Shown here: positions 27,371-49,927 of the stretch, piece after piece
How positions within the stretch are numbered: the stretch's first letter is position 1
Layout of the letters: every line of letters begins with the position of its first letter
Source: Psammoneis japonica
Taxonomy: Eukaryota
Length of the DNA: 64,000 bases
Direction: 5' to 3'
Assembly: GCA_008632985.1 (NCBI GenBank)
Contig: QPGO01000011.1
Span: 310,001 to 374,000 of the forward strand
The notes under the pieces: generated by a model
The model's database searches: none
What the model was told of the DNA's origin: nothing
Seen by the model: the letters and a program-made list of their open reading frames with translations, nothing else
Position numbers and translations under genes: made by a program

Positions 27371-27651
27371 AGATCAAGTTAATTAGGTCCATGGCACGTT
27401 TTTCCGCGTGTATGGCTGATTCTTAAATAATACATGTTTAGTCGAAAGAAAGATAAATTTACGACGAATCATAAAGGTTATCTTTCATAGTACGAAAATA
27501 ATACACTGGAAATTGTTCATGACTTGGAATTACTCCCACGACTAGCTTTAAGCTACAGCAGCATCTTTGCTGTGAACCTGAAGATTCTCTTGGGGCTGCT
27601 CACTCCCAAGTTGGGAGGTATGCTTTTTCTGGAAAAACTGTTTCGTTCGAG

Positions 27652-29164: not shown

Positions 29165-29949
29165 TGTTTCAGGGTCTTTCGGTTGTTGACCGATAGGATA
29201 TTCGATTCGGAACTTCTCTGATCTTGAAGCGAGGAGGGTAAAACGAAGCGGTGGGCAAAAAGAAAAAGTGAGCGTTTTCCACCGTACATACGGACAGAGC
29301 TCTAGGCATAATTTAAATTGTTGTATATTGAATAAATATGATTTTGTTACATAGTAAAGACAAACGAATGAATATTCATATGGAGCTTTATTAATAAAGT
29401 AATGAATCACTATGATAAGATTAGTTGGTTGGCGATAAATGACTTCATTAATGGTTTTTAAAACCGATAAATGAATAATCAGAAATATATATATAACATA
29501 TAATTCAACGGCTTTGACTACCAGCAAGAACCAATGAAGAGAGGGTTCTCGCTCACAAAATGAAAAGAAATCAAACACGACGAAGTAGGTTGGCTTTGGA
29601 AGCAATGACGAAGGGAGGGCTCCGAAAGAAAACTTTCGTGGTTATGTCTCTCAGTATTTCGCCTGATTGTCAAGAAGAATCATAGAGCATGCGATCCATA
29701 GCTGTTCGGTCGCAGCGACAACAGAACGGCACGATCGGCAATTCGCAAGGACAATGCCTGTGTAGGGGTCTTTCTGCATAATGTTCTTCCTCTCAGGGCT
29801 TTCTCTTCTAGAAAACAGGTAAACGTGTAAACAGAACCTGCCTACACTGCTTTTACATATTCCATTCCTTGACAATTGTCTGCTAGAAGTACTATATTGT
29901 AAATACTGAGCAGCGACAAACAGCTACAACCAGTAGCCGCGCCACTTCT

Positions 29950-30951
29950 CTATGGAGAGATAGTTGATTTTGATGCCGCACGTATAGCTCCTTCGATACA
30001 TTGAATGGCCTCATTGGACGGTTCTGCCTTGTGATTAAAGTAAATTTCAAAAGTAATTCTCTCCTTCGGGACCCCTGCTTGCAGGAGCCCAGTCTGCCAT
30101 TCGTTGACCATCTGACCATTGCCAATTAAGTGGTAGTGGGTATCCTTGATGCTACAGTAATCGTCGCTGGTAACCACTTCCATACTCTTGTCAGAGTAGC
30201 CAACACGCCCTTCATCATCAGTAATCACCGGTATGTATTGAAATTGACCTTCGTATGCTTCCTCCCACGACGACAAATAGTCTTCGTAGATAACTTCATT
30301 AGGAAACCGAAAGCTCGATATCAAATCAATTTTCTCGTATGGATAGCTTCCAAAAAGTAGTTTTTCTACAGCTCCAACACAAGGGCCAACACCAACTCCT
30401 GTAGAAATCATGACGACCCGTTTTGTGTTCTCGGATATTCCTTGGACGATGGGGACCTTAAATTTTCCTCCTAGCCGGAGTGGGGTACCAGGCTCGGCAC
30501 CGGCAAAGGCTTTGGATTTGGCGCCAACAACTTTGATGAGAATATTCATGGAGTTATGGGAAGCACTGCTCACTGTGTATGGGCCTCGCATCCAACCATC
30601 GTTCTTTTCTGCGTCAGCCATGGTTTTGTCATCCACGTTTCCGTGGCGGCTACTGTCATACTGAATTTCCAAGGCCAAAACATTCCCTGGCAGGTAGTCA
30701 AAAGGTCTTGCATCACCTTGCTTCGGCTGGATATGGAGAAGTACCACAGATTCATCGTTTCCCACTGGTTCCGCTTTCAGCAGCACAACTTCTCGCTTTT
30801 CATATTCTGGAGCGCCAGATTCGGCGTGCAGCTGCGTAAACCTGATGTCCTTCGGGGAGACAAAGAATGATGGACGTTGGACTGCAGGTGAAAAAGCCCT
30901 TGCCAACGGCGCGGTGGTGGACCCGATCAAGAATAGTAAGAGTCGCAACAT
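29950..30951 (-). CDS. Plastid-targeted FNR-like FAD/NAD(P)-binding oxidoreductase
   Basis: Signal peptide ending ARA-F, then YLPG, RGPYTVSS, MISTGVGVGP, LIGNGQMV and ITFEIYF motifs. Confidence 0.85.
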   Translation of the reverse strand: MLRLLLFLIGSTTAPLARAFSPAVQRPSFFVSPKDIRFTQLHAESGAPEYEKREVVLLKAEPVGNDESVVLLHIQPKQGDARPFDYLPGNVLALEIQYDSSRHGNVDDKTMADAEKNDGWMRGPYTVSSASHNSMNILIKVVGAKSKAFAGAEPGTPLRLGGKFKVPIVQGISENTKRVVMISTGVGVGPCVGAVEKLLFGSYPYEKIDLISSFRFPNEVIYEDYLSSWEEAYEGQFQYIPVITDDEGRVGYSDKSMEVVTSDDYCSIKDTHYHLIGNGQMVNEWQTGLLQAGVPKERITFEIYFNHKAEPSNEAIQCIEGAIRAASKSTISP

Positions 30952-31280
30952 GTTTGATAAAAATGGAGAAGGGAGAAAATAGACTAACCAAGCTCTTGTG
31001 GGAAATTGAAAATCAACAAGATGAATGGAAGGCATGTTGCATGTTTGTTCGTTGGCTTGCTGCGGCGAGTTTTCTTTTGATGAATATCATTCTCTAATAC
31101 CGTTTAAATTTTAAACTTGTTAGTATCGCGAATTTAGAGCAATCAAATGTGACTAGCAAATTTCAAACCCATCGCCCATCGGATCTCCAATCTCCAATCT
31201 CCACGCGACAGAACAATGGTGGTTTGGGTGGCGGCACCCATAGGCCTGTACGATCCTCACCTACGACTTCAAAATTCATC

Positions 31281-31706
31281 ATGAGAAGCAACGGCTACAA
31301 CGCCTTCTTTCGTCAGGTCCTCCTTCATTGGGTTCTAATGATCTCCCTGATACCACTATTTCATGCATTCTCCGTTCACCGAGTTCAACTTTCGACGGTT
31401 CAACCTACTCTGGCAATGCGGCGGCGCTCATTGTGGTGTTCCAAACAACAAGAAGAAGAAGGTCCTCTTTCACCGCTCGAAAAAGAAATGGAGGATCTCA
31501 AGTCGAAACTGGATTGGATTGAAGCATTGGAGGAACGAAATCGAGCTCAAATAGAATCTTTTGTGGATGAACAAGATCAATGGGATTCGATGGAACCAGA
31601 AGAACGTGACATCTTAGAGTCCAAGGAAGCTATTCTAGCGCGAATGGATACGCTCTCTGAAGAACTCGTCCGACTGTGGATGGGAGTCAAGTCAAACGAA
31701 GGATAG
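31281..31706 (+). CDS. Small probable plastid-targeted coiled-coil protein
   Basis: Hydrophobic signal ending HA-FS, basic transit-like peptide, acidic helical C-terminus (IEALEERNRAQIESFVDEQDQW). Confidence 0.65.
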   Translation: MRSNGYNAFFRQVLLHWVLMISLIPLFHAFSVHRVQLSTVQPTLAMRRRSLWCSKQQEEEGPLSPLEKEMEDLKSKLDWIEALEERNRAQIESFVDEQDQWDSMEPEERDILESKEAILARMDTLSEELVRLWMGVKSNEG

Positions 31707-31909
31707 GTTGATAGCATTACCACTATTTGGTGAGAGTGGTTCCTACCATAGTAGAGAGCAGTTTGCCTAGATTCATTCCAACACGCGTGAACTGAAGGAT
31801 GCCGGAAGAAAAGTTTGTACTAATACAGTACATACCGCAGTAATGTTTCAGCATTATGTTATATTCGCTAATGCTTGGTTTGTAGCTGTCGTTTTCGTAC
31901 AACAGGAGA

Positions 31910-33300
31910 TTACTCTGTACTAGTTGCGTTCAATGCCTTTTCCAACGCAAGCGCAATCTCTCGAGCACGAGGTCTCTTGGCATCATCGTGCGTAAAACAT
32001 CGATACATTGCATCGACAACGGCAGATATCGCTGGGTCGGTACTGTTTTTGATTTCGATTGGCAGCTCCGGGACAAATCCATTAGAAATTCTGGGCTTCC
32101 ACCAGATTGGTTTCAATTTGCTTGCAACATACATCGGGGTGTCCCAGTCGTCAATAAACTCGTAATTTGTCAGTATTGTGTAAAGACGTGCCCCAAGGAA
32201 TAGACATCAATCTTGTCGGTTAGGAATCCTGATTGACATTCTTCCGGAGCTTGGAACTGAATCATTTCAGATACAGAATGGTTATGGCCAAGATAGCGAA
32301 TGAAGTAAGAATGGTTATGAACGAGGACGGACAGTAATCCATTTGTCGCGCGATCTCCAATTTGATCTGACTTACCGGTCCACAGCGAGGTCTTACAAAT
32401 GCACATGTCTCCTTGGTGTCTCTGTCCCATCGCGACAACCGCGCTGCGTTAAAATCGTGTAAGAAAAACGATTTCCCATCTCTGGAAATGAGAATGTTTG
32501 GTCCCTTGATATCGTGATGGACTAGCGACGCGACGCGATTGTCGTCAATCCCGTGCACGTCCGCCAAGCCCTTGGCGACATCTAGAGCAAACTTGAGTTT
32601 TTGTCTCGAAGAAAAGTTGACGTGAAGTAAATGATAACGAATGGAAGCACCCACGTTGTTTATCGTGGATTGTCCACAATATCCGTAAATGTCCATTACA
32701 TAAGGGGACGAAGAGAGACGTTCCAGTGCTATTGCGTCGATTCGATTCTGTTCCGCCCGATGTGCGGTAAAGGGGGTATTAAGCCTGAAAAAGAGAGGAG
32801 AGAAAAAATGAGTCAGAACATCAAATACCAAGAGAGACCTGATTCGATACGTCGAGAAAGCATAGGGAAACCCACTTTTGCATTTTGAGCGCGTATTGAT
32901 GCCTCTGGTCCGTGTCTATTCTAAATACATCCCTGAAATTGCCAGTGCCCAAATGCTTTTCAATCTCGTCTGATAAGTCATGCTCGTGTACCATGTTGCA
33001 GGTGGGAAACGACTGAGACTGCCACTTTGCCATTTTAACACACCGCTTCTTTGCGCCCAGCGTCATATTGTACGATTTGCCATCTCTGGTAGGAGGGTAG
33101 TAATCCACTGGGATAGGTCTGGTCTCGAACGAATCTAGTGGATTGGGTTCTGCAGTCATTCCAAGAACAAGTCGACCCATTGGAGGACTCGAGTCAATTG
33201 TGATTGTGCTTTCATAATAGACAACACGTTTTTCGGTTCAGAGCCCCACGTCTTCGTATTCTTGTGTAGCTCGTCTCCGCTCGACTTATTCCAATGAACA
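31910..33300 (-). CDS. Protein kinase-like gene with introns and probable homopolymer frameshifts; 5' end uncertain
   Basis: LGTGNFRDV, YALK, HHDIKGPNIL, DFN, APEE, KIDVYSLG and RP.A.EI subdomain motifs. Confidence 0.75.
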
Positions 33301-34236
33301 GCTGCGTGCTCATCTGGTAGCACGCATTGAGCACCATCAGTGCAAGGCAACAGAGCATCAGCTTGCTCATGTTGAAAATTCTTTACCGGTTCGATGCAAC
33401 AACAACTTAAAGTGACTTGAGAGGTGAGTGATGATCGAGTTGACACATCTTGGATCGATGAAGAAAGTGAAATTGTGTCTTGTTTTGGCGTTTTTCAATC
33501 TTGTGGCTTGGTGAAAGCATCGGCTCGCTTGTTGGCTGGCCGAAAAAGGCGGGAACAGTCCATTTAGATCTCTGAAATGATAGAGCTTGACGCCCTGGCC
33601 AAAATTTGGGGTATGATTCTATTTAGTCTCTTTTAAGACAAGATAGATATTAGAATCGTCGCATATCTAAATCTTGTTCACTCACCTGGTACTTATCATT
33701 ATGCATAAGCTAAGGAAATGAAGGAATTCAATATAGTTTCAAAAGTACGATTCGATATTGAACGGAAATTTTATGTGCAAATAATGCTTCAAGCCTGAAT
33801 ACTGAATACCAACATTCATTAGCTTGCTTGCGCCATCTCGCAATGGGCTACTGTAGTTATGCGATATTTGAAGTTTGCGAATGGCCGATGGCGGCATCAT
33901 TCGCTCTGTGTAGAGCTAGAGCATAGTAGAGGTACAATAGTTATTGTGTGCTATTCTATCTAGAGAGAAGGAGAGAAACACGCAGAGTACAACTGTAAGG
34001 CTGGTGGCTGGGTTGCGATTGTGTGCCTGTCTCTACTAGGTAGAGTAGTCTTTGACAATTTTCAATTTGAAAACTTTAATGTGAAAACGAATTGCAAGTG
34101 GCGCTTTGCAATAACAAACTTGTTGAACGGAACCCTCGGGGTCAGTAAGTATGGTGCACTCTAGCGGCAGGTCTTTAAATCGAAATATATGTGAGAGAAA
34201 TTTGTTTCACAAGAGCGACATGTATCAATCATATAT

Positions 34237-35012
34237 TCATTTGCTAGACGAGTCGCCATTCTCAGTAGCAGAATGAGAAATGGGTGTAAGATCCTTTTCA
34301 TCCACCTTGCCATTGCCATGCATTTCCACACTTCGCTGCATGACGGATATGTTGTACGCCATGTCGGGTGCCTTGTAGACCCCGAACCCGAAACAATAAG
34401 ATTGGCTCCCGCCTTGGCTGCGGCGTCGACCGTTTTTGGTTTGACACCACCATCCACTTCAATGTCGAGCGACGGAAACATGTTCCGAAGCGTCGATACC
34501 TTGGTCATCATTTCTTCAATAAAGGATTGTCCACCCTTTCCTGGATAAACCGTCATGATCAACGCCAAGTCAATGTCTTTCGCATACTTGATAATTCCTT
34601 CGACGGGTGTATCTGGACTGACGGTCAAGCCTACCTTCATGCCGTGTGATTTAATCTTGTCAATGACATCTTGTGTAATACCTCGCGGTTCGGTAGCTTC
34701 ATAATGAAACGTATAGCACAACAAACTATCGTCGGAACAACTTGCTTTTGCCTTGGCTACTGGTTCGATCCATTGTTCGGGATGCGCCGTCATCATGTGA
34801 CAATCAAAGTGTGTGTCGGGTAAGTGCCTTCGTAGACATTCAATCACGTACGGACCAAAGGAAATGTTGGGAACAAAATGTCCATCCATGACATCCAAAT
34901 GAATGTATTGGGCACCCGCGGCAATGGCACGTTTCGCCTCGTCAGCCAAGCATGCCAAATCACAATCCAAAACGGACGGGCCGATTTTTGCTGGACAGCA
35001 GTGAAAAACCAT
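34237..35012 (-). CDS. RPE: Ribulose-phosphate 3-epimerase (no presequence); one G apparently missing in a homopolymer ~34380
   Basis: IGPSVL, HLDVMDGHFVPNISFG, DCHMM, MTVYPGKGGQ, IEVDGG, AGANLIVSGS. Restoring one G gives GSGVYKA...SSK*. Confidence 0.93.
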
Positions 35013-35330
35013 AGTGATGATGCTGTGTTGAAGAAGTGCTCAACCTGATGATAGAAAATACAAATACAAGTGCTGGTAGCAGCAACGGCAACGGCAACGG
35101 ATGGTGTTGTGTTGTGTGGGGTGGTGTTGTGGTGTGTGTATAGCGGTGCCGTGGTGTCGATGTTGATGTCGGGATGACATTTTTGGGAAACGCTTGCGTC
35201 ATCATGACGCAACAGGATCTTAGGCAGATCATGATCTTATTTCTTTTTTGTGGCGCTCGGCGCTGATCTTCACCGTAACCACAATCAATGCACAACAAAG
35301 CACGACCAACCAGCTATTGCCACCACAATC

Positions 35331-36372
35331 ATGACAAGCAATGAACCCACCCTTGTGGACTGCAAGATGCAGTGCTTCTTTTGGCATTGTGGGTTCGAGG
35401 GTTGTGGTCCCATGTTCCGGACGATTGGCGACATTGTCAAAAACAACAAGGACTTCTCAACAAAAAGATCGAACCCCATGTTGGTCCTCTGCAATTCCCC
35501 AACACGAGCAAGGAGGAATTGGTGTGGGCGGCTGCGTCACTGGCACCCCAGACGACATGCAAGACCCCCCAGAAGGCTTGGAAGAAATTGTGGTGCCGGG
35601 ATGGCAATGTGCGACAATTGTTCATCACGGCGATCATGCAGGAATGCCCAAGTCGTGGGGTCAGTTGTGCAAGGAGTGATTCTGTCACAAAACTTGCTTC
35701 CTGCCAAGGGTTCTTGGGACTTTGTTCGCTGCGAAGCTTGCTTGAATTCTGTTGCCTGTGGCACCGACCAGAAAGATCCAGAGACTCAGCTCTTTGCTCC
35801 GGTCGAAGACACCGCACCCGTTGGGAAGCCTGGCACAAAAATGGTCAGAATCTGTCTGAGCTTTGATGGAAATTGTGCCTTGGCATTCAACCATTGTTCT
35901 GCCGTTTTCCGAAACAAACTCAAAATGTCTGCCGCCTGCGGCGACTCGCCCATGAAGAACGATGTGCCACAGGAACGCTGCGACAAAATCCTGCACTGCA
36001 GTCTGGACATTGGCCTTGGCAAGAAATTCCAGCTCATGGGAAGTGGTTGCAATCCTGTCATGCACAAAGAGCCTCACACGGTGGGGACAACACCCAAGTT
36101 AGTTTGGAGCCTTCGAGCAAGGAAGAAGCCGATCGCGGTTGTTTGCCGAACTTGGCCAGGGGGGCAAAGTGATGATGCCCTTGGCAAAGCAGTTTTGGGG
36201 GTCCCATCACGGATTGCTCATTGACAAATTGGGTGTCCACTGGATGTTTGATTTTGAAATTCCAAAGGACGATGGAGAAGGAAAGAAGGAAGCCGATGTC
36301 CGGAGACCACAAGAATGTGCACCACAATTGGACGATGCGGCTGCAAAAGAGGCCAAGAAAGAGAAAAAATGG
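35331..36372 (+). pseudogene. GyrI-like small-molecule-binding domain + PhnB/VOC (glyoxalase-like) fusion pseudogene
   Basis: GLEEIVVPG.QCATIVHHGDHAGMPKSWGQL...RCEACLN (GyrI-like). ICLSFDGNCALAFNHC..VF, CGDSPM, DKILHCSL and FAELGQGGKVMMPLAKQFWGSHHGLLIDKLGVHWM (PhnB). Frameshifts; Tyr replaced by Cys/His. Confidence 0.8.
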
Positions 36373-36833
36373 GGCGATGATGCACTGCCATTTGTGGCTC
36401 AATCGTGTGGCAGCTCAGATGAAAGAAACCTGTGGCAGCCTGAAATGTGTGTCGGGTGCCATTGTTGTGGGTTGGAGCAATGTGCTGCCTCCCTTTCTTG
36501 TTTTGTGTCTCACCCTTGGCCTGAGTTGGCTCTTGGTGAAGACATTTGGACACAAGTTGTTGTCTTCCATTGCTTCTGAAGCTTTGCGTCATTGTCAACG
36601 ATGCACTGTGGGGCCCCACTGCAACCTCAGCTGGCGACGATTTGAGATTGCGTGCATCGCTGGATGCATGGGCACACGGGTGCAATCTAAAAAAATCTTT
36701 TGCCACACATGATCTTCAAAGCATCTTGGATGACTTGCAGTGTTCTTTGTTGTTGTCATCTGCTGCACTTTTAATCTGTTGTCATTGCTGTTGTTTTTGT
36801 CATCATTGGTGCAGTGCAAGAACAGCATGGCAC

Positions 36834-37037
36834 CCAAACAAAACATGTTGATGGTGAAACGATGGGACGAGCTGTGTCGTTGTTGGTTTGGTCGATTTTG
36901 TTCATCCGCAGTTGCCTCTTGACAGTGAAACCACCAAACAAAACATGTTGATGGTGAAACGATGGGACGAGCTGTGTCGTTGTTGGTTCGGTCGATTTTG
37001 TTCATCCGCAGTTGCCTCTTGACAGAGTGAAACCACC
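36834..37037 (+). repeat. Two-copy 100-bp tandem repeat
   Basis: caaacaaaacatgttgatggtgaaacgatgggacgagctgtgtcg... repeated with period 100. Confidence 0.95.
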
Positions 37038-37278
37038 AACAACAAGTCACTCCATGTCGTTCGTGGTGTCCATTCATCCATGCCCTTTTGCATCAAGTGC
37101 GTGTCAGAGAAACAACACAAGATGATGATGAGGATGACAACAAAATTGCAGAGATTGCAAAAAACAATGCATTTCTTGATGAGAGCTTGAGTGCATTTTG
37201 ATCCAGACATTGAGATTTTGCAACCAAACAATCTCCCCACCAATTGAGTGCATGCCATGTCTCCTGCATTAAAACAAT

Positions 37279-37957
37279 TTAGAAGAAACCTTTGTCCTTG
37301 AAATGAGAAGCCCGCTTCTTGGCACGTTCCTTGGACAGGTGACACACTGGTTGTCCTCATCGAACATGCATCCGACGAACTTGCCATCAACCTCAGCTTC
37401 GGAGGCTTGGTGATCACGGCCATCTGTGCTGGTCATGCCACAGACCTTTGCTCCAGCATTGGTCAAACAAAGGCACAGTTCTCTGGCAGCATCACAGCAA
37501 AAATTGAAGCAGGGCTGTTGGTCGCCAACTCCAAAGATGGCCTCTTTCTTTCCCCTTCATGTCAACATTTGGGAGGGTGTCGCAGAGCCCATGTGAACAG
37601 TCAACAATGAGAGGTGACTGGGTCACTTGGCTTTGGACATCAGGTCATGGCAGGTGAAGTGCACCATTCATCCCAAGCGGTTCCAGAATGCTCTGTTTTG
37701 GAGTCTGTCTGCCACGTGGGTGCTCCAACAATCAAAGCATCAGCTCGTCCAGCAATGTTGTCATCAGTTGCATCGCCAATGTCATTTGATTCAAGGCCAG
37801 ATGCATCAGAGATGTGCCCAGCATGAGTTTCAGTGTTCCCTGTTTGAGAAGAACACCAAATGCTGATGGCATTGAGAGCAGCAGAAGAAGAACCTCCAGC
37901 AGATGGAGCAATCAGGGTGAAGGCACTGGTGGCAAGAATGAGGAAAACGATGCCAGT
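37279..37957 (-). pseudogene. fld: Plastid flavodoxin pseudogene (one intron ~37589-37664, frameshifts)
   Basis: ATSAFT presequence, IWCSSQTGNTETHAGHIS, ALIVGAPTW...SGTAWDEW, LCDTLP, AIFGVGDQQ, CDAA.EL, AEVDGKFVGCMFDEDNQ, ...KGFF*. Confidence 0.9.
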
Positions 37958-39496
37958 TTAAATCTGTGTGGTGTTTTGCTTCTTGGTTGCATCAAAATGC
38001 AACACTTGTGAGATGGAAAGGGATGGTGTGTGCTGCCCTGAAGAGTGCTCAGGTGTCAATTGATGACATCATTGATGTGGGACAGAAAGCGCAGCACGTG
38101 GATGACCCGTGCTTGATCCTTGAATCACAAAATGAGAGCCACAGAGTGCCTTGACACTGGCAGCTGCCTGAATGATTTCTCTGTGCCTCGCTCCAATGTT
38201 TTGTGTTTTGTGGCTTGCATCTTGGATCTTGCTTGGATTCATGCATTGCGCATGCACTCTGGTGCACAATTTTAGGATCTTTGAGTGACGACACATGGGA
38301 CGAACACCAAACACCCCACACCAGCACATGCTGCACATGTGCGCACACATCACACCCCCAACATGTTGGCACACAGCATGCAGATTGCACAGAGTTGAGG
38401 CACAGGACAGAAATGAAAGATGGTCAGGCCAAACCAATCCTCAGGCAAATGACAAACCAAGCTGGCAAGGTGGCAGGGCATGCTCTGGGTGGTGACAACA
38501 GGAAGAAATTGATGAAAACCTGCCAGAGTTGACAATGACATTGATGCAACAGTTGAGGTCAAGCACACAGTTGTGAGCTGGGGAGCAGAGCACAGCGCCA
38601 CAGGGCGGCTGTGTCTTCTTGGATTGATGCCACCACCTGTCTTGGCACAAAAAAAGGGTCAATTTTGCCTGCTGTGCTCCAAGTCTCTGGTCTTGAATTT
38701 CCTGTGTGACCCACTCAACTTGAGCATTTTGTGAAACCTCTTGGCAGCTCTTGCTCCTGTCTTGCTTTTGCCCTCACCCCCCCACCCCCCCCAGGGACAG
38801 AGAAGCACCCAAGGTGCAAAAGCATCATCAATCGCCTGCTCTTCAAACCATTGTCTGTGGCAAAAACAGAGTGATGTCAGTTGTTCCTCATGGCACTGGG
38901 CAGATGAAAATGACAGAGCTGGCTTTTTTGCAGCACATTTGTTTTGGGCTGGAATTGAAGTGCAAAGAGGATGAAACACAGCAGCAACAACTCTGCAGCT
39001 GATGCCACCCTCCACTTGTGACCAACAAAAAATGTTTGAAACTTTGCACTTGTGTTGTGTCAGGAGTTGGTTTTTGAGTGTGTTTTGTTGAAAACAGGGT
39101 TCTTGTGGTCACACATGGGAACATGAGGTTGGGCCTCACAGCTGCAGAGCACACCCCCGGCCGTCCTTTCTCCACAAAAGCAACAATGTCTCACCTTTTT
39201 TTGTGGTCCATTTTTTGTGTTGCTTGTCTCACCTCTGCTTTGTGACTTTGACAACAGCACATCAATTGCAAGGAGACATGAGCTTTGTTCCTTCCTGCAA
39301 GCCTCAGCACAGCAAACCTCTGAGCTGATGTTTCCACCAGCTTTGAGTTGTTGACAAAAACTGGCACCTGAAATGAGCAATTTGCTGGATGCTTGTTTTG
39401 TCACCAGGCGCCAAAGTCATCAAGAAAGAAAATGATGTGGCACTTGCAACACTTGCCAAAAGGACTTTGGCGCAGCTGTGTGGAAGGTCGCATGAC

Positions 39497-39780
39497 GACG
39501 CGTTCCAGCCCTAGGTGGGACTCCGTGTGACATTTGGCCCGTAGAATTCTACGTGCGAGCTCCGTAGTACGAGAATTTAATTAATGGATATATTTATCTT
39601 CAACATCAAATAAACGGCCAAGTTTGTGGTACAATTATGCCTCTTACCACTCGACGTTTTTGCAAATGCACCTGCCCTACGCGATTCTTAAGACATTATA
39701 GAATCGCGCTGTAACAAAAAATGTCAAAAGTTTTTGGACGGATCGCTCAATAAGTGTACCGTAAAATGACACAAAATATC
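39497..39780 (+). mobile_element. Young, unmutated copy of the GACGCGTTCCAG-TIR MITE, truncated at the assembly gap (N at 39781)
   Basis: Starts gacgcgttccagccctaggtgggactccg after flank ...gcatgac. Normal TA/CG content. The left flank (~39401-39496) reappears after the N without the element. Confidence 0.85.
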
Positions 39781-42700
39781 NTCACCAGGCACCAAAGTCA
39801 TCAAGAAAGAAAATGATGTGGCGCTTGCAACACTTGCCAAAAGGACTTTGGCGCAGCTGTGTGGAAGGTCGCATGACATGGAGCCCAACAACAAAGGCAT
39901 CTGGGTTGTCAGATGAGGGTGCGGACTCACAAACAAGCACAGTGCCACAAAAAGCAGATGCCAAATGGCACTCTTGCTGGATTGTTCCTCTGTGACCCCA
40001 AGTGCAGTGAGGACTTGCCTTCTTCTTCATCATCGTCTTCTTCTTCTTCTTCTTCTTCTTCTAACTTTCAGAGTGCTTGTGGCTGGAGTTTTCAAGAACC
40101 TGCAAGTGCCAGCCAATGGTCCACTCATTCCTTGAATTTGTGGGAAGTCACATTTTGTCCTGCTTGGCAGCTCTTGCCAGCAAAGAACACTCTCTCAAAC
40201 AAATGCCATCTGTGACAAGGTGGGGGGTGGTTGTCATCACAGCAAGCTGTGTGGTTGATGATTTGTTGATTTTGTGATGGACCTGGGACCTGGCCACACA
40301 AGTGACATTGAAGCAGCATGCAGAAGAAGTCAAGGGCACATGATGGGTTCATGGAGTTTGTGAGTGCAGAGGATTGTGTTTGCATCTCAAAGGCCAAGCT
40401 TTGTGAGAGACAATTCAGCCACTGCCAACAAAAGAGGCTTTGCAACTTGCTCTGGACTGGACAACAGAGCATGCCAAGAAGCAAGAGAGGTTGTGCTTGC
40501 TTCACACAAGACCAAGACTCTTTGCCCCAGCCTCCATGGAAACAAGCAGAGCACACACAGCAGCCCAAGCCAAAATCTCAGCTTTTGCCATGCTGCTGCA
40601 GGTCAAGATCATCACACATGGGAGCCAGTGCCAACCTCACACAACGTGGAATTGCCGCCAAACAAACACACCTTGGTTGAGACCACTGCCGCTGTTTGCA
40701 GCATTTTGGATGCAAGTGGTGGTGATGAAAGCTCAGGCTATGAGCCACTGCATGATGTCTTTGTGAACAGCCCCTGGTTGCCACACCTGGTCTTTCTTTG
40801 CTGGAAGCCTTGCCAAAGATGAGCCACTACCTGCTGCCAGCAAGCACCAACAAGCCCACTGCATTTTCTGGCATCACTTTTGAAGAGGCAGAGCACCCCT
40901 GCCCACACCTCAGCTGCCAGCACACTGGCTGCAGATGAAGTTGTTGATGACAACACAAATCCACATGTGGCCAGCCAGCTTTCCATCCTTCTCAAACAGG
41001 CCACACTTCTCAACTCTTCTCCTGTGTCACATCTGATCATGCTTGCAAAGGCAACAGCACAAAAGCCATTGCTGGTCCACCCACAGATGAAGATGGTGCC
41101 CCTCTGCTGCTGTCACAGGGTGGGCACTCTCTCAGCACTGTCAGTTTTGATGAGTTGTTGGGACAACTGCTGAGCTGAGATGCACTGCACCATGCACATG
41201 TTGGCAGAGGGAGGACAGCTCTGGAAATGTGGCAGCTGCACAGACCAGGGCTTCACTCAATTGCCACAAGAGAGCAGCTGCAAAGAAGAGCCCATGGTTG
41301 ACTTTTTCTGTGCTGTCTTGCTGCACTCAATCAAGCCAAACCCTTGAAGAGTGGGCAACACTGACAGAGAGTGGTGTTTTTTGCATCGTTGTCACAAAAA
41401 CATCATTGTGTTGCCAACTTGCAAGACAAATTTCAGAAGCCAAAGGGCCAATCTGCAAAAAAGGTTTGTGCTGCCAATGCCTCTGCACTCTTGTGGATGA
41501 TGGGTGCATGATGTCTTGAGGTGACTGGAGTTCCTGAAAGCCAGAAGCATTCTTTTGTGGCGTGGCCATTGTGTCAGAGGATGTTTTGGACAATGACATG
41601 AGACCTGGCCTGTGGCTTGCTCCCTTTGTGCATGACAAGCACTCCAAGCTTCTTGCTCATGAGCACCCAAAACCATGGAAAGCTCTTTTGTGGGCTGGAC
41701 ACATCAAATCTCTTTGTCCACAATTGTGCATCAAGATTTGTGCGCATTGTGCAGCAAAGGACTGGGGCTGCTCTGCATTGAAATTTGACTTCTTTTGCAG
41801 CACATGCTTGTTTGGGAAGAGTGGCAAATGTGATTTGTCCATGGGCCATGCCAAAGCCATGCACTCAGCTTTAGAAATGGTGTGGCATGCTGCTGGACCC
41901 AGCACACTTTTGATTGAATGTCAGTGCCCCATTGGCACAGCCATGGGCCACGTTGATGGAGTGCATGTTTCCACAGATGCTGGACCAACATGGCATCCTG
42001 CCTTTCCTTTCCCCAAGAATGATCAAGAGACACTGTCAGCTTTGAAGAGCATGCTCTGGAGTTCCATGTCAAGAGCATCTTTTGGACATTGATGGCAGCA
42101 CAATGAGACCCAGACTGTTGTCTCCTTTTTGGCAACAGCGCCAAGTTGACAGATGCAGAGATGGCAAGTGCTGCATTGGCAGCAAACACAACATGTTCTT
42201 GCTCCTGTCAGATGACTCAACCAAGTGTGCCACTGAGTGCCAATGCACTCTGAGCAAAGTCCATCCCATGACGGATGCCACAGCCATTCCACTGGACCCA
42301 CACAGCTTTCCTGAGATTGTGGTGTCTGGACCGCTGCAACTGGAAATTTGATGAAAAAGCAGCACATGACAGTCTCACCAAATTATTTGATGTTGCAAAA
42401 AGCAAGACAGCAATGCTGCTGCAACATTCTTTGGGAGGTGTGCCTCATTTCATGCCAGCAAGCCTTGGTCAGTGCCAAATGAGAGGAAGCCAACTTGCAT
42501 CTGCTTTGCATCAGGCATGGGTGCATGGACGGTGGTGCTTTCATCAATGAGTGGCCATGACGTGCCGAAAATCATGCAGACTCCTTTATCTTCTCTGCAC
42601 CCACCACCAGAGATGGAGTGGGAAGAGGTGTCGCATGATGAAATTGAGCCAACGAAATCTCAGAAACGAAGCACAAACGGCCACCACGTGTTTGCCTTGC

Positions 42701-43186
42701 TTGTGCTCGTCAATCTGCACCTGGATTCCAGATCAAGATCATCTTGCTGCACAGCACACTGGGTGGAGCAAGCTCATTGACGTGCATGCCACGGAGATTG
42801 TTCACATTCGGCCCGTCTCACTCAACATGCCTCAATGTGTGGGTGGCGATTTACACTTTTCCTGTGGAAGTGAGGTGAATTCGTTCTAATCAACGGCATC
42901 CAGTGTCAACCTGTCGCTGCAGAAAGATTGGCATCGCAAGGGGTCCATCTTTTTGCATCTCCCACGCCAAGAATGTCAACTCTATTTCCGTGACTGTCAA
43001 TGGTGTCCCCATTGATCGCAAGGTCATTGGCTGGGATGTCGTGGCCAACACCCCGCGTCATCACGATGCACCACCACCAACTTGCCTAGGACGTATCATT
43101 CCAGTGTCTGTCGTGATTCACGCAGATCAATCAATCAGAGCATGATGCCAAGTAAATCCTAAATTCTAGAGGAAACTAAAAATATC

Positions 43187-44473
43187 TTACATGTCCGCTG
43201 TGCTGAGCCGATAAGCGTGTTCCTTCTTCCTCTCGACACTGTATTTCCTAGCTAGCACCTTGTCTTCAAACCCATTCCCACGATCTACGCCGTCCCAACG
43301 ATATCCTGGCTGGATACCAAATCGGTTTGGCTTTGGTGGGGGTCCCTTATATCTCGGTTTCAGAGGAGCCGCCGGTCCACCGCCTCCTGTCTTGCTTGTA
43401 GACGCTTTCTGTTGCTTCTTGTACGCATATGCAGCCATGGGGTCTTCCGCCCGAATCTCATTCTTTCTCATATCTTCTAGACCTCCATGATCAGCCCGCC
43501 GCGCAAAGGACTCTGTTTGCATCTGGCTTAATTCCTGTTTTGCATGTTCTTGTTGCAGTCGTTGTTTGCGTCCCATGTTAAGTAGCTTGGACGCCTCCTC
43601 ATCCAATTGTTTCGGCTGCTCTGGCTTCTCAACCACCTTGCCAGACTTGTCTCTATAGACGGTTTCTCCCATCCCGTGTCGATCCACCATGAGCTGTGCA
43701 TCTCGCTTCTTTTCCCTCTGCAACCTTTCTTCTGCCTTGCGGAAATCACTCGATTGCTGCAAACCCGCCGTGTGACCCGAACTCATTTTCGCTCTGCCAT
43801 TGCTACTGCTATCGTCGTCAGAAGAGTCGTGTCGACGGCGTCTAGGAGGAGATGGACTCTCATTGTCTGAATCATGTCTACGCCTTCTTCTAGGAGGAGA
43901 AGAGCTATCGTCTGAATCATGTCTCCGGCGTATTTTTGGAGGAGAATCCTCATCGTCGTCTGAATCATGTCTACGTCGCTTACGAGCCTGCACGCTGCTG
44001 TCACTGTCTGAATCATGCCTTTTTCGACGAGGTGGTGATGCGCTCGGCGAGTTGTGACGGTTTCTTTGTCTCGGTGGCGAATCTTCTCTGCTATTATCGT
44101 CGTCATCAGAATCATGTTGGCGTCTACGACGAGGTGGTGAATCATCATCATCATCATCAGAATCATGCCGTCTTTTTCTGTTCGAGTCGCTATGGTCAGA
44201 ATCACGACTATCCACTACCTCCCATTCCTGCTTATTGTCCTTTAGTATTTCTTCAGAGTCCAAAACAACAACCGGTTCTTCTTCGAAATCGTCATTGTCT
44301 TGTACAGGAGGAAGCTCGTCGCATCCATCGTCATGAATGACTTGCAGAGTAGATTCGTCTTTTTTGTGTTGTTTCTTTTTCTTTTTCTTCTTTTTCTGTT
44401 TCTTCTTGTCTTTCCTCGTTTCACTCTCTACGGATGTGTACTTGGACAAGTAATCCAACTTGGAAGACGACAT
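43187..44473 (-). CDS. BUD13: Pre-mRNA splicing factor BUD13/CWC26 (RES complex)
   Basis: DYLSKY N-terminus, RRRHDSD repeats, ETVYRDKSG, DPMA, PNRFGIQPGYRWDGVDRGNGFE. Confidence 0.95.
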   Translation of the reverse strand: MSSSKLDYLSKYTSVESETRKDKKKQKKKKKKKKQHKKDESTLQVIHDDGCDELPPVQDNDDFEEEPVVVLDSEEILKDNKQEWEVVDSRDSDHSDSNRKRRHDSDDDDDDSPPRRRRQHDSDDDDNSREDSPPRQRNRHNSPSASPPRRKRHDSDSDSSVQARKRRRHDSDDDEDSPPKIRRRHDSDDSSSPPRRRRRHDSDNESPSPPRRRRHDSSDDDSSSNGRAKMSSGHTAGLQQSSDFRKAEERLQREKKRDAQLMVDRHGMGETVYRDKSGKVVEKPEQPKQLDEEASKLLNMGRKQRLQQEHAKQELSQMQTESFARRADHGGLEDMRKNEIRAEDPMAAYAYKKQQKASTSKTGGGGPAAPLKPRYKGPPPKPNRFGIQPGYRWDGVDRGNGFEDKVLARKYSVERKKEHAYRLSTADM

Positions 44474-45964
44474 ATTAGTATTACTGGTAAGGCTGTTATC
44501 AGTCTCAAGTCTCACCTTTTCGCTGCTTTACGCTTTGGTAAGTGGTAGAGTGTTATGAAGGTTATGGGTTGCCAGTTCTGTGCGTGTGCAAAAGATTGGA
44601 AGATGCGCGAAACACAAAAAGATCGTACGCGGAACTTCCCTCCGACACAGAATATAACGGACGGTGGCAAGTAAAGTGCGTGTGTCTGAAGCGCCGAAAG
44701 AAACGACGTTGGGAACCGAGCGTGGTTGTTGACGACGACACATGCGAAGAGGAGGATGGCTGAAAAATGGCCATTTGAAAACTTTGTATCCGTTGAGCCA
44801 ACACCTTCATTGCACTCGCAAAACCTGATCCTAACAATCGTGAAATGAGTCGTGCTTCGGAATTCGTGTAGAATCTACGCATTCCCTAGTATGTAGCTGA
44901 GCGTGATAGCTTGAAGCTGAGCGTGGCGGCTGCGATCGGAACATCACTCACTGCTCACAATCCATCGAAACAGAGGATTGTCAGGGTTGTTTTTGGGGTA
45001 AGAACGAAGGCCGCGGTTTGTATTGTATGCTTTCTCAACCATGGACTTTTCTATAGCCAAGCCAGACAACGCCTTCGTGATGCCTGTCACCGCCATGATC
45101 GCCGTCGACTCGGAGCAGTAGTGTTCTCAGTCTCGTGTCGTGGAGGAACTGTAATGTCGTGTTTGGACTCTGTCTGGTGTTTGTTCAGAGTCCATATTCG
45201 CCGCGCAGATTCTCCAAGACATGAGATTGAGGGTTTCGTGTCGACGGTTTGATACCCCGATTGTGGAGCGCCGCACATGCCGTCCGTCTGATTGTCTGTT
45301 TTCATTCGTAGGTTGAGGAGGAGTGTATCAGTGTCCATGATGCTGTTCTTTCCTTCAATATCTATGATTGGAACTTTCATGATGATGGATAATTGTGGTG
45401 ATTGGTAGGGTTACGCTGGATTCTGCTTGGGTGTAGTTGAGTTCATTGTCGTTATTGCGTATGATATGCCGGGTTCTTCCTCCAGTACAAAACGATCCTT
45501 GGTGACGAGAGCGTTCTGAGACATGAAAAAAAGGAAGCAAGCACTAGAACCGGGACTCTGTCAATGTTACTGTGGAAATGCCTTCCCGCAGGACAGGGGG
45601 TGATCGGCTAGTGACTTTGTTATCCACCAAAGTCTATACCGTGTGGTATTATTGAGCATTGAAAAAAGAAAAGAGGCCAAACTAAGAATAAGGAGTGAAT
45701 AGCATCTGAGGTGAGAAAGGGTATAAGACCCTGCTAAGTGGTGTAAAAGGCGAGCTTAGTAGTACGGCATCCCCCTCCTCGGGCACAGCTGCCCTGGCTC
45801 AGGCCCACAGAACGAGAAAAAAAATACTCTCCACCAAAACCCCGGGGCAAAAGACCCCTACTCAACAATCTTCCAGTTCAAGGCTTTGTATGTATTAAGG
45901 TACAGTACAGTAGTATTTCCTTTCTTGTTTTTTGGTGTAACTTGAAGACTTTAAATTAGAAACA

Positions 45965-46135
45965 AGCATACTACGATGCGCTCAATACGCGATACTGGTA
46001 GTGTCATGATAGCGACTGTAATGAACTCTATGCAAATATTATGGTATGAGGTATTGACTGACATAGCTGCGATGAACCAAAAGGGCTGAGTCGATGACAG
46101 GTAGGGCTCCATAGTTGGTATGGCGTCACTCTCAA
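45965..46135. repeat. Diverged duplicate of ~50875-51047 (probably paralogous gene relics on the minus strand)
   Basis: Shared tacgatg.gctcaatacg.gatact, gaactctatg, tgacatagct and gctccatagttggtatggcgtcactctca. Confidence 0.75.
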
Positions 46136-47239: not shown

Positions 47240-47976
47240 ATCCCCGCTCGCGCTGTGCATAGCATGCTATGCACAGACATTTTTGCGAATTATCGCCAAA
47301 ATCGCGCATGTGCATAGCATGCTATGCACAACACAATTTTTTGGCGCCTTTTGGTCATCCTATTAATCAACTACTTTGAAGTGTCTGGAAAGACCTTATT
47401 GTGTCAAACATGTCAGACGCCTTTGACGTTCCTATTGACCCACTTGAAGCGGTTGATGTGGTACACGTGTAATGAGATTCAGCGATTCACGTAGAAATGA
47501 CGTAGAAAAATACTTGTGTAACTCCTCGTACAAAAGCTACGCATTAGCCTCGCCAACAAGTGTCTCCACTTCCAAGGTCATTGGAACAAGAAAGCTGCTA
47601 TTTTAAAGGCTGTCCAATAAACATGTTAACAAGTATTGACTCATCGTCAATAAACGCTATCTATGTCCTAATGAAACGAGGTACTTGGAACTTGAGCGAC
47701 TCAAACCTTGTGCATAGCATACTATGCACAACGTAGAATTCTACGTAAAAAATCCCGCCAAAATTGACCAACTTCTGTGGCATTAAACAGCTATGTAAGC
47801 CCCATGGCGGAAGCTGTCCTTTTCAGCCTGTTTCGATCGTCGAGTGTACTGAAAGGTTCGGTATGTGTCAAGAAATGTAATGTCTCGGGGAAGTTTCGCG
47901 ACACCTCTGAAACGTTGTGCATAGCATACTATGCACAGTGCGCGCGGAGTGGGGTTATGGTAGACAGAGATGGAAT
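47240..47976. repeat. Palindrome-rich putative transposon end: four TGTGCATAGCAT(G/A)CTATGCACA copies plus ACGTAGAATTCTACGT
   Basis: Copies at 47254-47275, 47309-47330, 47709-47730 and 47916-47937; 16-bp palindrome at 47731-47746. Confidence 0.85.
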
Positions 47977-49571
47977 CACTCTCCATCGTGAGTCTATGCG
48001 TCGACCGTTCTTCGCGCGCGCGCTCGCACGCACCCGAAGGTCTCCTCATAGACTCTCGCGGAAGTAAGACGGACGATGTACCAGGGTCGTATGTAGGCCG
48101 TTTGTTACGGTGCCGTTTTTCCGTCGCACCGGCGGGACATGCTGTACATGCCGCAAGCTCATTGCTGTTATAGGCATGAACGACTCCCAAGGCTATCTAG
48201 CACTGTAGAATGAATCTTTTGTTGGGACGTTTCGAGCACAACATGACAAAACCCCACAGCCACACAACTGCTGCACAGCTTCTCGTTCCATCTTTCACAA
48301 TCGGACGTGTTGGTCCTTTTCTCTCGGCTCGATCGCGCTGGCCACACATGGAATGCCAGCTCTCCTCGTTCGTTTCTGTGGTCAGGGTGATGCACCCAAC
48401 ATTTGTTCCACAGTTCATCAATCACCAAGAACTGCCACACCAGCAGGTGATCGCAAGCCAGTTGCTGTGGAAGCCAAAAAGAGACGGGAGGAAGATGCAA
48501 GCAGTGAGAACATCCAAGACACAGATTTCAAGATGAGTCAACAATTGTGAGCAAAATCACAACACCAACTTGCCAATTAACCTTTGCGCACATTCTTTCG
48601 TGTCTCCTGTGTGCATGTGCTTGTCGCTGTGACCCTGTTTGTCTCATGCCATTGCTAGAGACATTCACACTGTCGCGAACTGATGAAATCCTGTGCGAAG
48701 CACAAGCCCCATTGAGTGAGTTTGAACACCAACAAGTGACAACATTGTCACAGGAGCTTGCCTCCTTTACTCAGCGGCACTGAACGAGCACAGTCAATGC
48801 ACTCAAATCTACCCAAGCGGCAAGAAATCGACACAACCGTCCAAAAATCTCCAAAAATGTCATAAAACAGCGATGCCCAACCGAAAATGAGACACCAGAC
48901 TGTCTTTGCCTCAAATCTCAGAGCTGTGGTCAAACCACGCCTCATGCAGACACCAATGAACAACACCAAGGCATTGCATGGACTGAGAACCTGTGTGACA
49001 ACGAGGAAGAGCCCAACCCGTGAGTGAGCACATTTCTGGCAAAAAATAAAAAGCCATTTCCCACAAACGACAGAAACAACGGTTGTGCTGCAAGAAAGAC
49101 AATGCCATTGCAAGACAATGACGAAAACATGCACAAGTTTCCATGTCATAACTTGCAGGGCGCAACGGAGCGGAACATGCGACGACAATCAACGACACAT
49201 GTCAGCACCTGCCGAAAAAGTGACGATTTTGCACTCAGTCAGTCTCGGGGATTAATCAATCAAAAATTTGCCAATTTTCTCCGTTCCAACACCATGGTGC
49301 GCTTCAACAGCGAGCATCCGAGTGACCACTGAACGGTGCAAGGCATGGCTGTCGACACGCCGATGAAATCGATCATCGTCGGAACGGCACATTTTCTGGT
49401 GTGTTTTGTGTAGAAAGCTCTGTAGAGCGTTTCGCCAAATCCAGGGAGGCACGGTAACAAATTTTGAGCCAGCGTCCGTCTCACTTCCGCGAGAGTCTAT
49501 GAGGAGACCTTCGGGTGCGTGCGAGCGCGCGCACGAAGAATGGTCGACGCACAAACTCACGATGGAGAGTG
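47977..49571. mobile_element. Non-autonomous Mutator/MULE-like element, ~99-bp TIRs, 9-bp TSD AGATGGAAT
   Basis: TIRs 47977-48075 and 49473-49571 (about 5 mismatches). agatggaat at 47968-47976 and 49572-49580. Interior ~48210-49400 is TpA-depleted. Confidence 0.85.
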
Positions 49572-49843
49572 AGATGGAATGAAGTGAGTTCAGCCCGCGA
49601 CGTGTTCGGTGTTCGGGCTTGGGTTCATTGCCAGATCGGAAGTGCGAGGCGCACGCAATCTTGACGCACGTAGAAACATCGCAGGCCTCTTTTCCCCAAA
49701 TGAAAACCGTTGTGGACGTCACTTTTTTTGAAAATCCGCGAGAGAGCGGCCAAATGGGGAGGTCCACGTAGAAATGCGTAGAACCTCCTTTCCCCATTTT
49801 GGCGATTTCACACGACAAAATTGTTCTCGCGATTTCGCGCGTT

Positions 49844-49927
49844 GGGGAGTGGGGAATGGGGAGTGGGGAATGGGGAGTGGGGAATGGGGAGCGGGGAATG
49901 GGGAGTGGGGAGTGGGGAAAGGGGACT
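49844..49927 (+). repeat. 12 x 7-bp GGGGART tandem array (G-quadruplex-prone)
   Basis: ggggagt/ggggaat units read directly. Confidence 0.95.

What the first reader, a model, noticed from the sequence alone, without database searches (positions are those of the whole stretch)
35331..36372. Bacterial-type GyrI-like + PhnB fusion gene pseudogenised with TA lost but CpG kept
No intron is evident in this two-domain gene. FWGSHHG (cat cac, 36205-36210) stands for PhnB FWG.YYG and ICLSFDGNC for YLSFDGNC. The likely stop TAG is now TGG (36370-36372, after KEAKKEKK). CpG is plentiful in this stretch, so TpA erasure is uncoupled from, and apparently faster than, 5mC deamination. Both domains are mainly bacterial, so this may be a horizontally acquired gene targeted as foreign or duplicated DNA (inference).
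Basis: partly seen in the sequence, partly recalled or inferred. Interest (0 to 1): 0.75.

Follow-up and report, generated by a model that had tools for sequence, protein, structure and literature searches.

The report
Host gene killed by TA erasure
The only copy of a bacterial-type but long-resident gene in this probably diatom genome sits at the edge of a DNA block where nearly every TA has been mutated to TG or CA while CG decay lags behind, so a rarely reported mutation process seems to have reached an ordinary gene rather than a foreign one.

Summary
The gene is a real, intronless GyrI-like + PhnB/VOC fusion (49% and 55% identical to its nearest homologues). It has 0 Tyr in 349 codons, five frame breaks and a probably lost stop. 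TpA is gone (1 site, O/E 0.02). CpG is only partly kept (O/E 0.61 against 0.80-1.12 in seven neighbouring genes) and still differs between strains. The gene is the left edge of a 7.7-kb TA-erased block. Against intact paralogues, the core lost both TA (1/109 kept) and CG (3/144), the right edge lost TA only (0/10 against 10/19), and three transposon copies lost about 70% of TA with no net CG loss. So TpA erasure runs ahead of CpG decay, but in the same domains. The 'recent foreign or duplicated gene' reading is not supported: the gene is single-copy, has a Seminavis robusta homologue, and no GTDB genome matched its clade motifs, while a duplicated gene and 95-98% repeats nearby are spared. Best reading: collateral loss of a resident gene to a regional TpA>TpG/CpA mutator like that of Bigelowiella natans. 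This scan already noted the process, and its TA-before-CG order, on other pieces of this genome.

The parts
34161..35014 (-). Ribulose-phosphate 3-epimerase gene, not TA-erased; head-to-head with the decayed gene. Has a one-base frame break in a G4 run near its 3' end that may be an assembly error
   Evidence: Pfam PF00834 E 5e-58; TA O/E 0.50, CG 1.12; translation; X2 contig is 1 base longer over 34142-35031
35012..35330 (.). Divergent intergenic region with normal TA; the last TA before the erased block is at 35315, 16 bases before the ATG
   Evidence: 11 TA, O/E 0.50; CG 0.85; TA positions
35331..35810 (+). GyrI-like small-molecule-binding domain, decayed; frame breaks at 35496, about 35550 and 35677; 0 TA
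   Evidence: 79/162 aa identical to S. robusta CAB9530169.1; Pfam PF06445 E 4.7e-5, 24.1 bits, under the cut-off of 26, on the piece 35500-35676; 156 bits with an HMM of 7 homologues
35811..35840 (+). In-frame linker, no former stop codon, no intron
   Evidence: codon list
35841..36261 (+). PhnB/YjdN-like VOC (glyoxalase superfamily) domain, decayed; frame breaks at about 36087 and about 36137 (the second reads as a 2-base tandem duplication)
   Evidence: 77/141 aa identical to P0001; homologues hit PF06983/PF00903; 170 bits with an HMM of 14 homologues; NCBIfam YjdN E 0.0015 on the last piece
36262..36372 (+). Charged C-terminal tail ending in a Lys-rich motif; TGG at 36370-36372 is the likely former stop; next in-frame stop is TGA at 36577
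   Evidence: translation; similar tails in P0042, P0006, P0002, P0004; the former stop is inferred
36784..37277 (+). TA-erased 5' fragment of an ApbE-fumarate-reductase-type gene whose intact paralogue is on contig C13 (682.5 kb)
   Evidence: blastn; Pfam ApbE and FAD_binding_2 on the C13 ORFs; TA 1/8 and CG 7/24 kept
39266..43100 (+). TA-erased copy of a melibiase/alpha-galactosidase-type gene, intact on C13 (694.6-697.9 kb); core of the block and its right edge
   Evidence: core 39266-42600: TA 1/109, CG 3/144 kept; 42601-42850: TA 0/10, CG 10/19; 42851-43100: TA 3/6, CG 11/15; Pfam Melibiase on the C13 ORF
39401..39781 (.). Young 381-bp high-copy insertion with a 9-base direct repeat and normal TA and CG; absent from the X1 haplotype
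   Evidence: joint 39400-39782 and very high summed depth; TA O/E 0.77, CG 1.22; flanks
43187..44527 (-). Bud13 gene, duplicated on C13 yet not erased; bounds the block on the right
   Evidence: Pfam PF09736 E 2e-35; TA O/E 0.58, CG 1.02; TA 26/43 and CG 47/58 shared with the C13 copy over 43101-44300
47974..49572 (.). Inverted-repeat transposon-like element used as an early-stage control: most TA lost, CG unchanged
   Evidence: TA 91 in the least-hit copy against 24/29/21; CG 78 against 82/79/80

Best explanation
The stretch is the genome's only copy of a resident GyrI-like + PhnB/VOC fusion gene, probably once a small-molecule-binding or detoxifying protein (inferred from the domain families). 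It lies at the outer edge of a silenced domain (35316 to about 43000) whose core is made of dead duplicates of host genes. In such domains a strand-symmetric mutator turns TpA into TpG or CpA, quickly and nearly to completion, while CpG decays to TpG/CpA more slowly, most likely by 5mC deamination. The gene was reached late or sits where methylation is weaker, so it shows the intermediate state: TA about 97% gone, CG about 35% gone. Shown: the spectrum, its direction, the order TA before CG, the core-to-edge CG gradient, single copy, and a diatom homologue. Inferred: silent chromatin as the guide, outward spread, 5mC as the cause of CG loss, and DNA adenine deamination (A to inosine, read as G) as the most likely chemistry (about 55% among mechanisms; oxidative or other attack on the T of the same palindrome cannot be told apart from sequence).
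For: Direction and order from intact paralogues: core TA 1/109 and CG 3/144 kept, with 90 TA and 114 CG becoming TG/CA; right edge TA 0/10 against CG 10/19, Fisher p 0.005. Early stage: three transposon copies keep 16-21 of 85 TA but 56-60 of 71 CG, with no net CG loss; 19-21 of 51-54 shared hit sites are resolved oppositely (TG against CA) between copies, so copies were hit independently. CG O/E along the block: 0.59, 0.64, 0.41, 0.58, 0.32, 0.16, 0.10, 0.10, 0.70, with TA at 0-0.17 throughout (young insertion left out). In the gene, 9 of 86 TA-restoring transitions give the conserved residue, against 10 of 355 other transitions (p 0.005). Not a read artefact: the independent X1 contig covers 35679-36863 with 8 substitutions, none restoring a TA. 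CG decay is live: 16 of 30 listed in-block differences to X1 are plain CG<>TG/CA, 8 in each direction, two of them inside the gene. Single copy. Controls spared: Bud13 duplicate, 95-98% repeats (TA 114/123 kept), young insertion. Precedent: bioRxiv 10.64898/2026.01.13.699255.
Against: No intact copy of this gene was found, so its own TA and CG losses rest on O/E values and protein conservation. CG-restoring changes are not significantly enriched at conserved residues (6/123 against 10/355, p 0.26). The edge effect is modest over 264 kb: CG O/E 0.59 within 200 bp of an edge, 0.25-0.40 further in, and some CG-rich erased tiles lie kilobases inside blocks, so position alone does not explain CG retention. 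The left boundary falls within tens of bases of the ATG, which also fits targeting of the gene as a unit or an insertion junction. A gradient does not by itself show spread in time. No methylation, chromatin or RNA data. Some frame breaks may be assembly errors (three of five lie at C4/G4 runs; X1 has 5 gaps, net +3, over 35679-36863, places not shown).
Confidence: 0.66

Rival explanations
1. The gene died or was silenced first for its own reasons (dispensable, frameshifted), then became its own target of the TA mutator; adjacency to the duplicated segment is incidental.
For: The erased zone starts at the ATG (last TA at 35315). Five frame breaks. Ten non-TA, non-CG transitions also hit conserved residues. 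In B. natans a single-copy, transcriptionally silent region is hypermutated.
Against: CG retention falls from the gene toward the block core and is mirrored at the right edge; there is no TA-containing gap between gene and core. Active genes on both sides would set the same boundaries under spreading.
Confidence: 0.2
2. One reading: a horizontally acquired or duplicated gene recognised as foreign and hypermutated for that reason.
For: Both Pfam families are bacterial-type; the PhnB clade is sister to Bacteroidota sequences at SH-aLRT 97 in a quick tree. Mettrop et al. propose targeting of foreign DNA.
Against: Single copy. S. robusta has two GyrI-like homologues. 0 of 26 pattern hits in 185,579 GTDB genomes encoded a relative. 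Best named bacterial PhnB identity is 54/130 against 77/141 for the unnamed clade. The ApbE-bearing gene on C13 is intact, the Bud13 duplicate and young repeats are spared.
Confidence: 0.07
3. The whole stretch from about 35316 rightward is one inserted, gene-capturing segment (Helitron- or Pack-like); the gene was carried in as cargo, its donor locus was lost or is unassembled, and the segment was erased as mobile DNA.
For: The block is a mosaic of host-gene pieces from two places 12 kb apart on C13; 44.2-50.4 kb has a rearranged copy at C11:176-181 kb.
Against: No second copy in the assembly, and no extra depth from 80%-alike contigs over the gene, whereas the C13 paralogues do show up over 37.0 kb and 42.3-44 kb. 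No match upstream of the C13 paralogue. No element ends were looked for or found at 35316. The upstream region looks like an ordinary divergent promoter (inspection).
Confidence: 0.05
4. Sequencing or assembly artefact from modified bases.
For: One likely single-base assembly error in the neighbouring RPE gene.
Against: X1 contigs carry the same TA-free sequence at over 99% identity; changes are directional against paralogues; G5/C5 runs are not clearly short in 264 kb.
Confidence: 0.02

Closest known systems
TpA hypermutation of integrated NCLDV and virophage DNA in Bigelowiella natans (Mettrop et al., bioRxiv 10.64898/2026.01.13.699255; read: parts 1-3 of 5 of the text, abstract to conclusion, plus passages; supplements not seen)
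   Same: TpA>TpG and TpA>CpA on both strands, confined to regions; a single-copy region can be hit; TpA-poor, CpA/TpG-rich clusters include TE, host-like and unannotated genes.
   Different: Here a probable diatom; 40% of 264 kb is erased nearly to completion (18 blocks), against Rho 0.45 in the B. natans NCLDV region; the targets here are a host gene and dead host-gene duplicates, not viral DNA; a slower CpG decay follows in the same blocks (the preprint's text has 0 occurrences of 'CpG' or 'diatom').
Fungal repeat-induced point mutation (RIP; mechanism recalled, and summarised in search listings)
   Same: Regional transition hypermutation at a dinucleotide, destroying genes within or beside silenced repeats.
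   Different: Opposite direction (RIP makes TpA from CpA; this removes TpA); here a single-copy gene is hit and 95-98% identical repeats are spared.
DNMT5-dependent CG methylation of transposons in Phaeodactylum tricornutum (PMC9998398, passages read; PMC12344493, passages read)
   Same: CG methylation restricted to TE-rich, H3K9me/H3K27me3-marked regions would give the CpG>TpG/CpA decay seen in the blocks.
   Different: 5mC deamination cannot remove TpA; methylation was not measured here.
GyrI-like domain (PF06445; SbmC, BrlR effector domain) and PhnB/YjdN VOC domain (PF06983, PF00903)
   Same: Both domains are present; P0008 from a JGI/IMG set has the same two domains; P0008 matches PDB 1u6l (E 4e-27) and the BrlR-type domain 5xbi (E 5e-4).
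   Different: Order is GyrI then PhnB, the reverse of P0008; S. robusta has the GyrI-like domain alone; this copy is decayed. No intact protein with this order was found.

Membership tests
GyrI-like (PF06445) | Pfam score above the curated cut-off (26 bits) | tested here: inconclusive
   24.1 bits, E 4.7e-5 on one unbroken piece; 21.8 bits in the genome search
GyrI-like (PF06445) | Full-length homology to proteins that pass the cut-off | tested here: met
   79/162 to P0042, 71/148 to P0008 (71.2 bits PF06445); 156 bits with own HMM
PhnB-like VOC (PF06983/PF00903) | Direct Pfam hit on the window's pieces | tested here: not met
   0 hits on four pieces at E up to 10; none in the genome search; expected for broken pieces, as intact homologues score only 25-37 bits
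PhnB-like VOC (PF06983/PF00903) | Full-domain homology to proteins that pass the cut-off | tested here: met
   77/141 to P0001, 170 bits with own HMM
YjdN equivalog (NCBIfam PRK10148) | Score over 122 bits | tested here: not met
   P0008 46.8, P0001 52.3, window piece 19 bits
B. natans-type TpA hypermutation | TpA>TpG and TpA>CpA, both strands | tested here: met
   33 TG and 28 CA in the window transposon copy
B. natans-type TpA hypermutation | Confined to bounded regions | tested here: met
   18 blocks, TA O/E 0.02-0.16 against 0.58 outside
B. natans-type TpA hypermutation | Target of viral origin | tested here: not met
   targets identified in this block are cellular genes; 37300-39265 stays unidentified
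B. natans-type TpA hypermutation | About 1000-fold raised de novo rate, on in some lines only | not testable with these tools
   needs mutation accumulation lines
B. natans-type TpA hypermutation | ADAT2-like DNA deaminase (only proposed in the preprint) | not tested
   no search for deaminases was run
Fungal RIP | C>T transitions that create TpA | tested here: not met
   TpA is lost, not gained
Fungal RIP | Triggered by duplicated sequence | tested here: not met
   single-copy gene hit; repeats and Bud13 duplicate spared
5mC-deamination CpG decay | CpG>TpG/CpA excess in silenced regions | tested here: met
   114 of 144 paralogue CG in the core; 16 of 30 listed strain differences
5mC-deamination CpG decay | 5mC present at the locus | not testable with these tools
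   no bisulfite or raw signal data
Recent bacterial gene transfer | Closest relatives are bacterial, absent from related eukaryotes | tested here: not met
   S. robusta homologue; none in GTDB motif scan; tree

The most novel reading that the evidence does not exclude
This alga runs a chromatin-guided, homology-independent DNA editor that erases TpA before methylation decay sets in, spreads outward from dead duplicates until it meets an active promoter, and thereby removes single-copy host genes: a third route of programmed gene death beside RIP and CpG decay. It strips Tyr and TAA/TAG stops, can make only TGA as a new stop, and is accompanied by an excess of 2-3 bp tandem duplications.
Probability: 0.35. 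Interest if true: 0.85.

Novelty: new variant of a known kind. Interest (0 to 1): 0.62.

Why it matters
A TpA-specific A:T>G:C mutator turned up in one preprint only, on viral inserts of a chlorarachniophyte (paper searches; no diatom report among the listed results). This locus adds that the process in a probable diatom goes to near completion, precedes CpG decay in the same domains, needs no second copy, and can take out the only member of a host gene family. That makes it a possible driver of lineage-specific gene loss, a source of mis-annotated Tyr-free 'genes', and a testable handle on the enzyme: edges like this one, with TA gone and CG half kept, mark where the process should be active most recently. 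The gene itself is ordinary.

Tried and rejected
Pfam on the unbroken long ORFs of the finding: no domain. Word-indexed homologue searches with the decayed frames: 0 of 414 and 0 of 14 candidates passed; phmmer over cluster representatives worked (39 hits). ESM Atlas gave only sub-0.9 VOC-type leads. PDB search with the GyrI alignment: 0 hits. No RNA holder listed for the locus; this says nothing on expression. An erased or intact copy upstream of the C13 paralogue: none, scores at shuffle level. Systematic homopolymer shortening in the assembly: not evident (G5/G4 ratio 0.18 against about 0.2). Whole-genome duplication: 26000-35300 has no second match. The metagenome scan with P0008 gave 32 loci at 25-64% identity, PhnB half only, none with the GyrI half. 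The careful tree did not finish; the quick IQ-TREE tree (82 rows, 143 columns) is used. The stretch 37300-39265 was not identified. A direct Pfam run on a back-mutated protein was not done; HMMs built from homologues and per-codon counts were used instead. Earlier-finding search by sequence with P0008: nothing.

Full report
Observation. The window alternates between ordinary gene-rich DNA (TA O/E about 0.55, CG about 0.95) and sharply bounded blocks with almost no TA. The finding begins 16 bases inside such a block: the last TA is at 35315, and 35331-36372 holds one TA (O/E 0.02, about 33 expected) and 42 CG (O/E 0.61). Seven of seven control genes in the window have CG O/E 0.80-1.12. So about 97% of TA and about 35% of CG are missing, a rate ratio near 8 if both decay exponentially (rough, as the gene's own starting values are unknown). 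'CpG kept' is true only relative to TA. The quoted motifs are at the stated places.

The gene. Phmmer over 1.84 billion representatives with the longest unbroken piece gave 39 hits, of which 19 were scanned with Pfam and 16 hit PhnB-like or glyoxalase families. One hit, P0008, carries both PhnB and GyrI-like domains, in the reverse order. Searching with it gave six GyrI-like proteins, among them Seminavis robusta CAB9530169.1 and its paralogue CAB9521356.1. Frameshift-aware alignment gives 79/162 identities to the S. robusta protein over 35325-35807 and 77/141 to P0001 over 35838-36261, with five frame breaks. Read with X at the breaks the gene has 349 positions, no stop and no Tyr (homologues 2.7%), and scores 156 and 170 bits against HMMs built from 7 and 14 homologues. 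The linker has nine in-frame codons with no trace of a stop, so the fusion is real and intronless. Nine of 86 possible TA-restoring transitions give the conserved residue (six Tyr), against 10 of 355 other transitions (p 0.005). CG-restoring ones give 6 of 123 (Arg to Cys, Gln, Trp among them), which is not significant (p 0.26). The former function is inferred from the families only: small-molecule binding (GyrI-like; weak match to the BrlR-type domain 5xbi) plus a VOC-fold domain (1u6l).

Is the sequence real? An independent run, X1, covers 35679-36863 in one contig with 8 substitutions, none restoring a TA, so the erasure is fixed DNA and not a read artefact. The frame breaks are less secure: three of five lie at C4/G4 runs, the intact RPE neighbour has a similar one-base break, an X2 contig is one base longer there, and the X1 contig has 5 gaps (net +3) whose places were not shown. 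G/C runs are not clearly shortened overall. Decay of the gene does not depend on the breaks, given the loss of all six conserved Tyr.

Foreign or duplicated? Neither is supported. DNA and protein searches of the assembly (own DNA, P0008, P0042, P0002, two Pfam families) found only this locus, and reads laid at 80% likeness add no paralogue depth over the gene, though they do over the neighbouring duplicates. The assembly may be incomplete. A motif scan of 185,579 GTDB genomes with the GyrI alignment gave 26 pattern matches and 0 relatives; this scan finds close relatives only. In a quick tree of 82 PhnB domains the gene groups with P0001, P0006, P0007 and P0008 (SH-aLRT 99) inside a diverse 19-row clade (98) that holds none of the five named bacterial rows and is sister to Bacteroidota-containing rows (97). 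An old bacterial origin is likely; a recent one is not. That the host is a diatom is itself inferred from this homologue and from earlier notes of the scan.

The block. Downstream of the gene lie a 5' fragment of an ApbE-fumarate-reductase-type gene (36784-37277) and a copy of a melibiase-type gene (39266-43100), both intact on contig C13, then Bud13, intact in both places. These give direct counts: in the core (39266-42600) 1 of 109 TA and 3 of 144 CG survive, 90 and 114 having become TG/CA; at 42601-42850, 0 of 10 TA but 10 of 19 CG survive (p 0.005); in the Bud13 part 26 of 43 TA and 47 of 58 CG are shared. The right edge thus mirrors the finding at the left edge, and CG O/E falls from about 0.6 in the gene to 0.10 in the core and rises to 0.70 at the right edge. 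An earlier stage is seen in the inverted-repeat element at 47974-49572: TA counts are 24, 29 and 21 in three copies against 91 in the least-hit copy, CG counts 82, 79, 80 against 78, and over a third of shared hit sites are resolved oppositely between copies. A 381-bp insertion absent from X1 keeps normal TA and CG inside the block, so erasure takes time. Of the 40 differences to X1 that one search listed (464 more not shown) I dropped 5 that come from a paralogous contig; 30 of the other 35 lie in the block: 16 plain CG<>TG/CA (8 each way; two in the gene), 4 rows in CA/TG switches of unclear origin, 2 at TA, 8 other. Difference density is 29/3577 in the block against 3/1532 over RPE (p 0.01). 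Over 264 kb of the contig, 40% lies in 18 erased blocks; CG O/E is 0.97 outside, median 0.26 in 174 in-block tiles, and 20 of 174 tiles reach 0.6 or more. The finding is therefore in the CG-rich tenth of erased DNA but is not unique. Against the edge reading, the genome-wide edge effect is modest and some CG-rich erased tiles lie deep in blocks.

How it most likely works. A regional, strand-symmetric mutator converts TpA fast; CpG decay follows in the same domains, as expected if they are CG-methylated silent chromatin (in Phaeodactylum DNMT5a-dependent CG methylation marks TE-rich regions; PMC9998398, passages). Duplication is not sufficient (Bud13 and 95-98% repeats are spared) and not necessary (this gene). 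I read the gene as collateral loss at the domain edge, bounded by the active RPE promoter (0.66); silencing of the gene as its own unit is the main rival (0.2). The chemistry is not shown; adenine deamination is the simplest, and TpA being palindromic, attack on T cannot be excluded.

Relation to what is known. Mettrop et al. (bioRxiv 10.64898/2026.01.13.699255; parts 1-3 of 5 read; passages) measured 230 of 231 mutations in two viral regions of Bigelowiella natans as A>G or T>C, all at TpA, and proposed an ADAT2-like deaminase. The spectrum here is the same; the host, near-complete depth, cellular targets and trailing CpG decay differ. It is not RIP (opposite direction, no homology trigger). 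Six paper searches listed no report in diatoms; most subscription papers are not covered. The scan's notes already describe this process, and TA going before CG, on many other pieces of this genome; they gave me the preprint, and are not counted as support.

Verdict. Observation partly confirmed; kinetics supported; horizontal-transfer targeting not supported. New variant of a known, barely described kind. Interest 0.62: the process is striking, and what this locus adds is the loss of a single-copy host gene at a domain edge.

Noticed in passing
window 39797-42600 against G000:C13:694600-697500: The erased melibiase copy has 40 insertions and 8 deletions relative to the intact paralogue; 25 insertions are 2-3 bp and 15 of 33 insertions of 2 bp or more are exact tandem duplications (binomial p 3e-6). 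May be a second signature of erased domains or the neutral indel bias; the Bud13 control was too small (4 insertions, 3 deletions).
   Followed up: partly
window about 34376 (RPE, minus strand): One-base frame break in a G4 run near the 3' end of an otherwise intact RPE gene; an X2 contig is one base longer over this interval, so probably an assembly error.
   Followed up: partly
window 39401-39781: Very high-copy 381-bp insertion with a 9-base direct repeat, polymorphic between strains, with the window's only N at its end.
   Followed up: partly
window 36841-37041: Tandem duplication of about 100 bp inside the erased fumarate-reductase fragment (both halves match the same C13 stretch).
   Followed up: no
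window 44206-50386: Nested multi-copy elements with a rearranged, inverted copy at G000:C11:176268-181644 at 89-96% identity; mostly not TA-erased except 48207-50135.
   Followed up: partly
G000:C11:270000-275000 (L062-L063): A 4-5 kb erased stretch with CG O/E 0.66-0.88, a stronger case of TA lost with CG kept than the finding.
   Followed up: no
P0008 (JGI/IMG, 340 aa): Intact PhnB + GyrI-like fusion with the reverse domain order, closely related in both domains; suggests a rearranged or repeated fusion in this clade.
   Followed up: partly
window 37300-39265: Two kilobases of erased DNA with only short weak matches elsewhere in the genome; not identified.
   Followed up: partly
erased blocks in G000:C11:210001-474000: G6 and C6 runs are about twice as frequent, relative to G5/C5, inside erased blocks as outside (16 and 17 runs; small numbers).
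   Followed up: no
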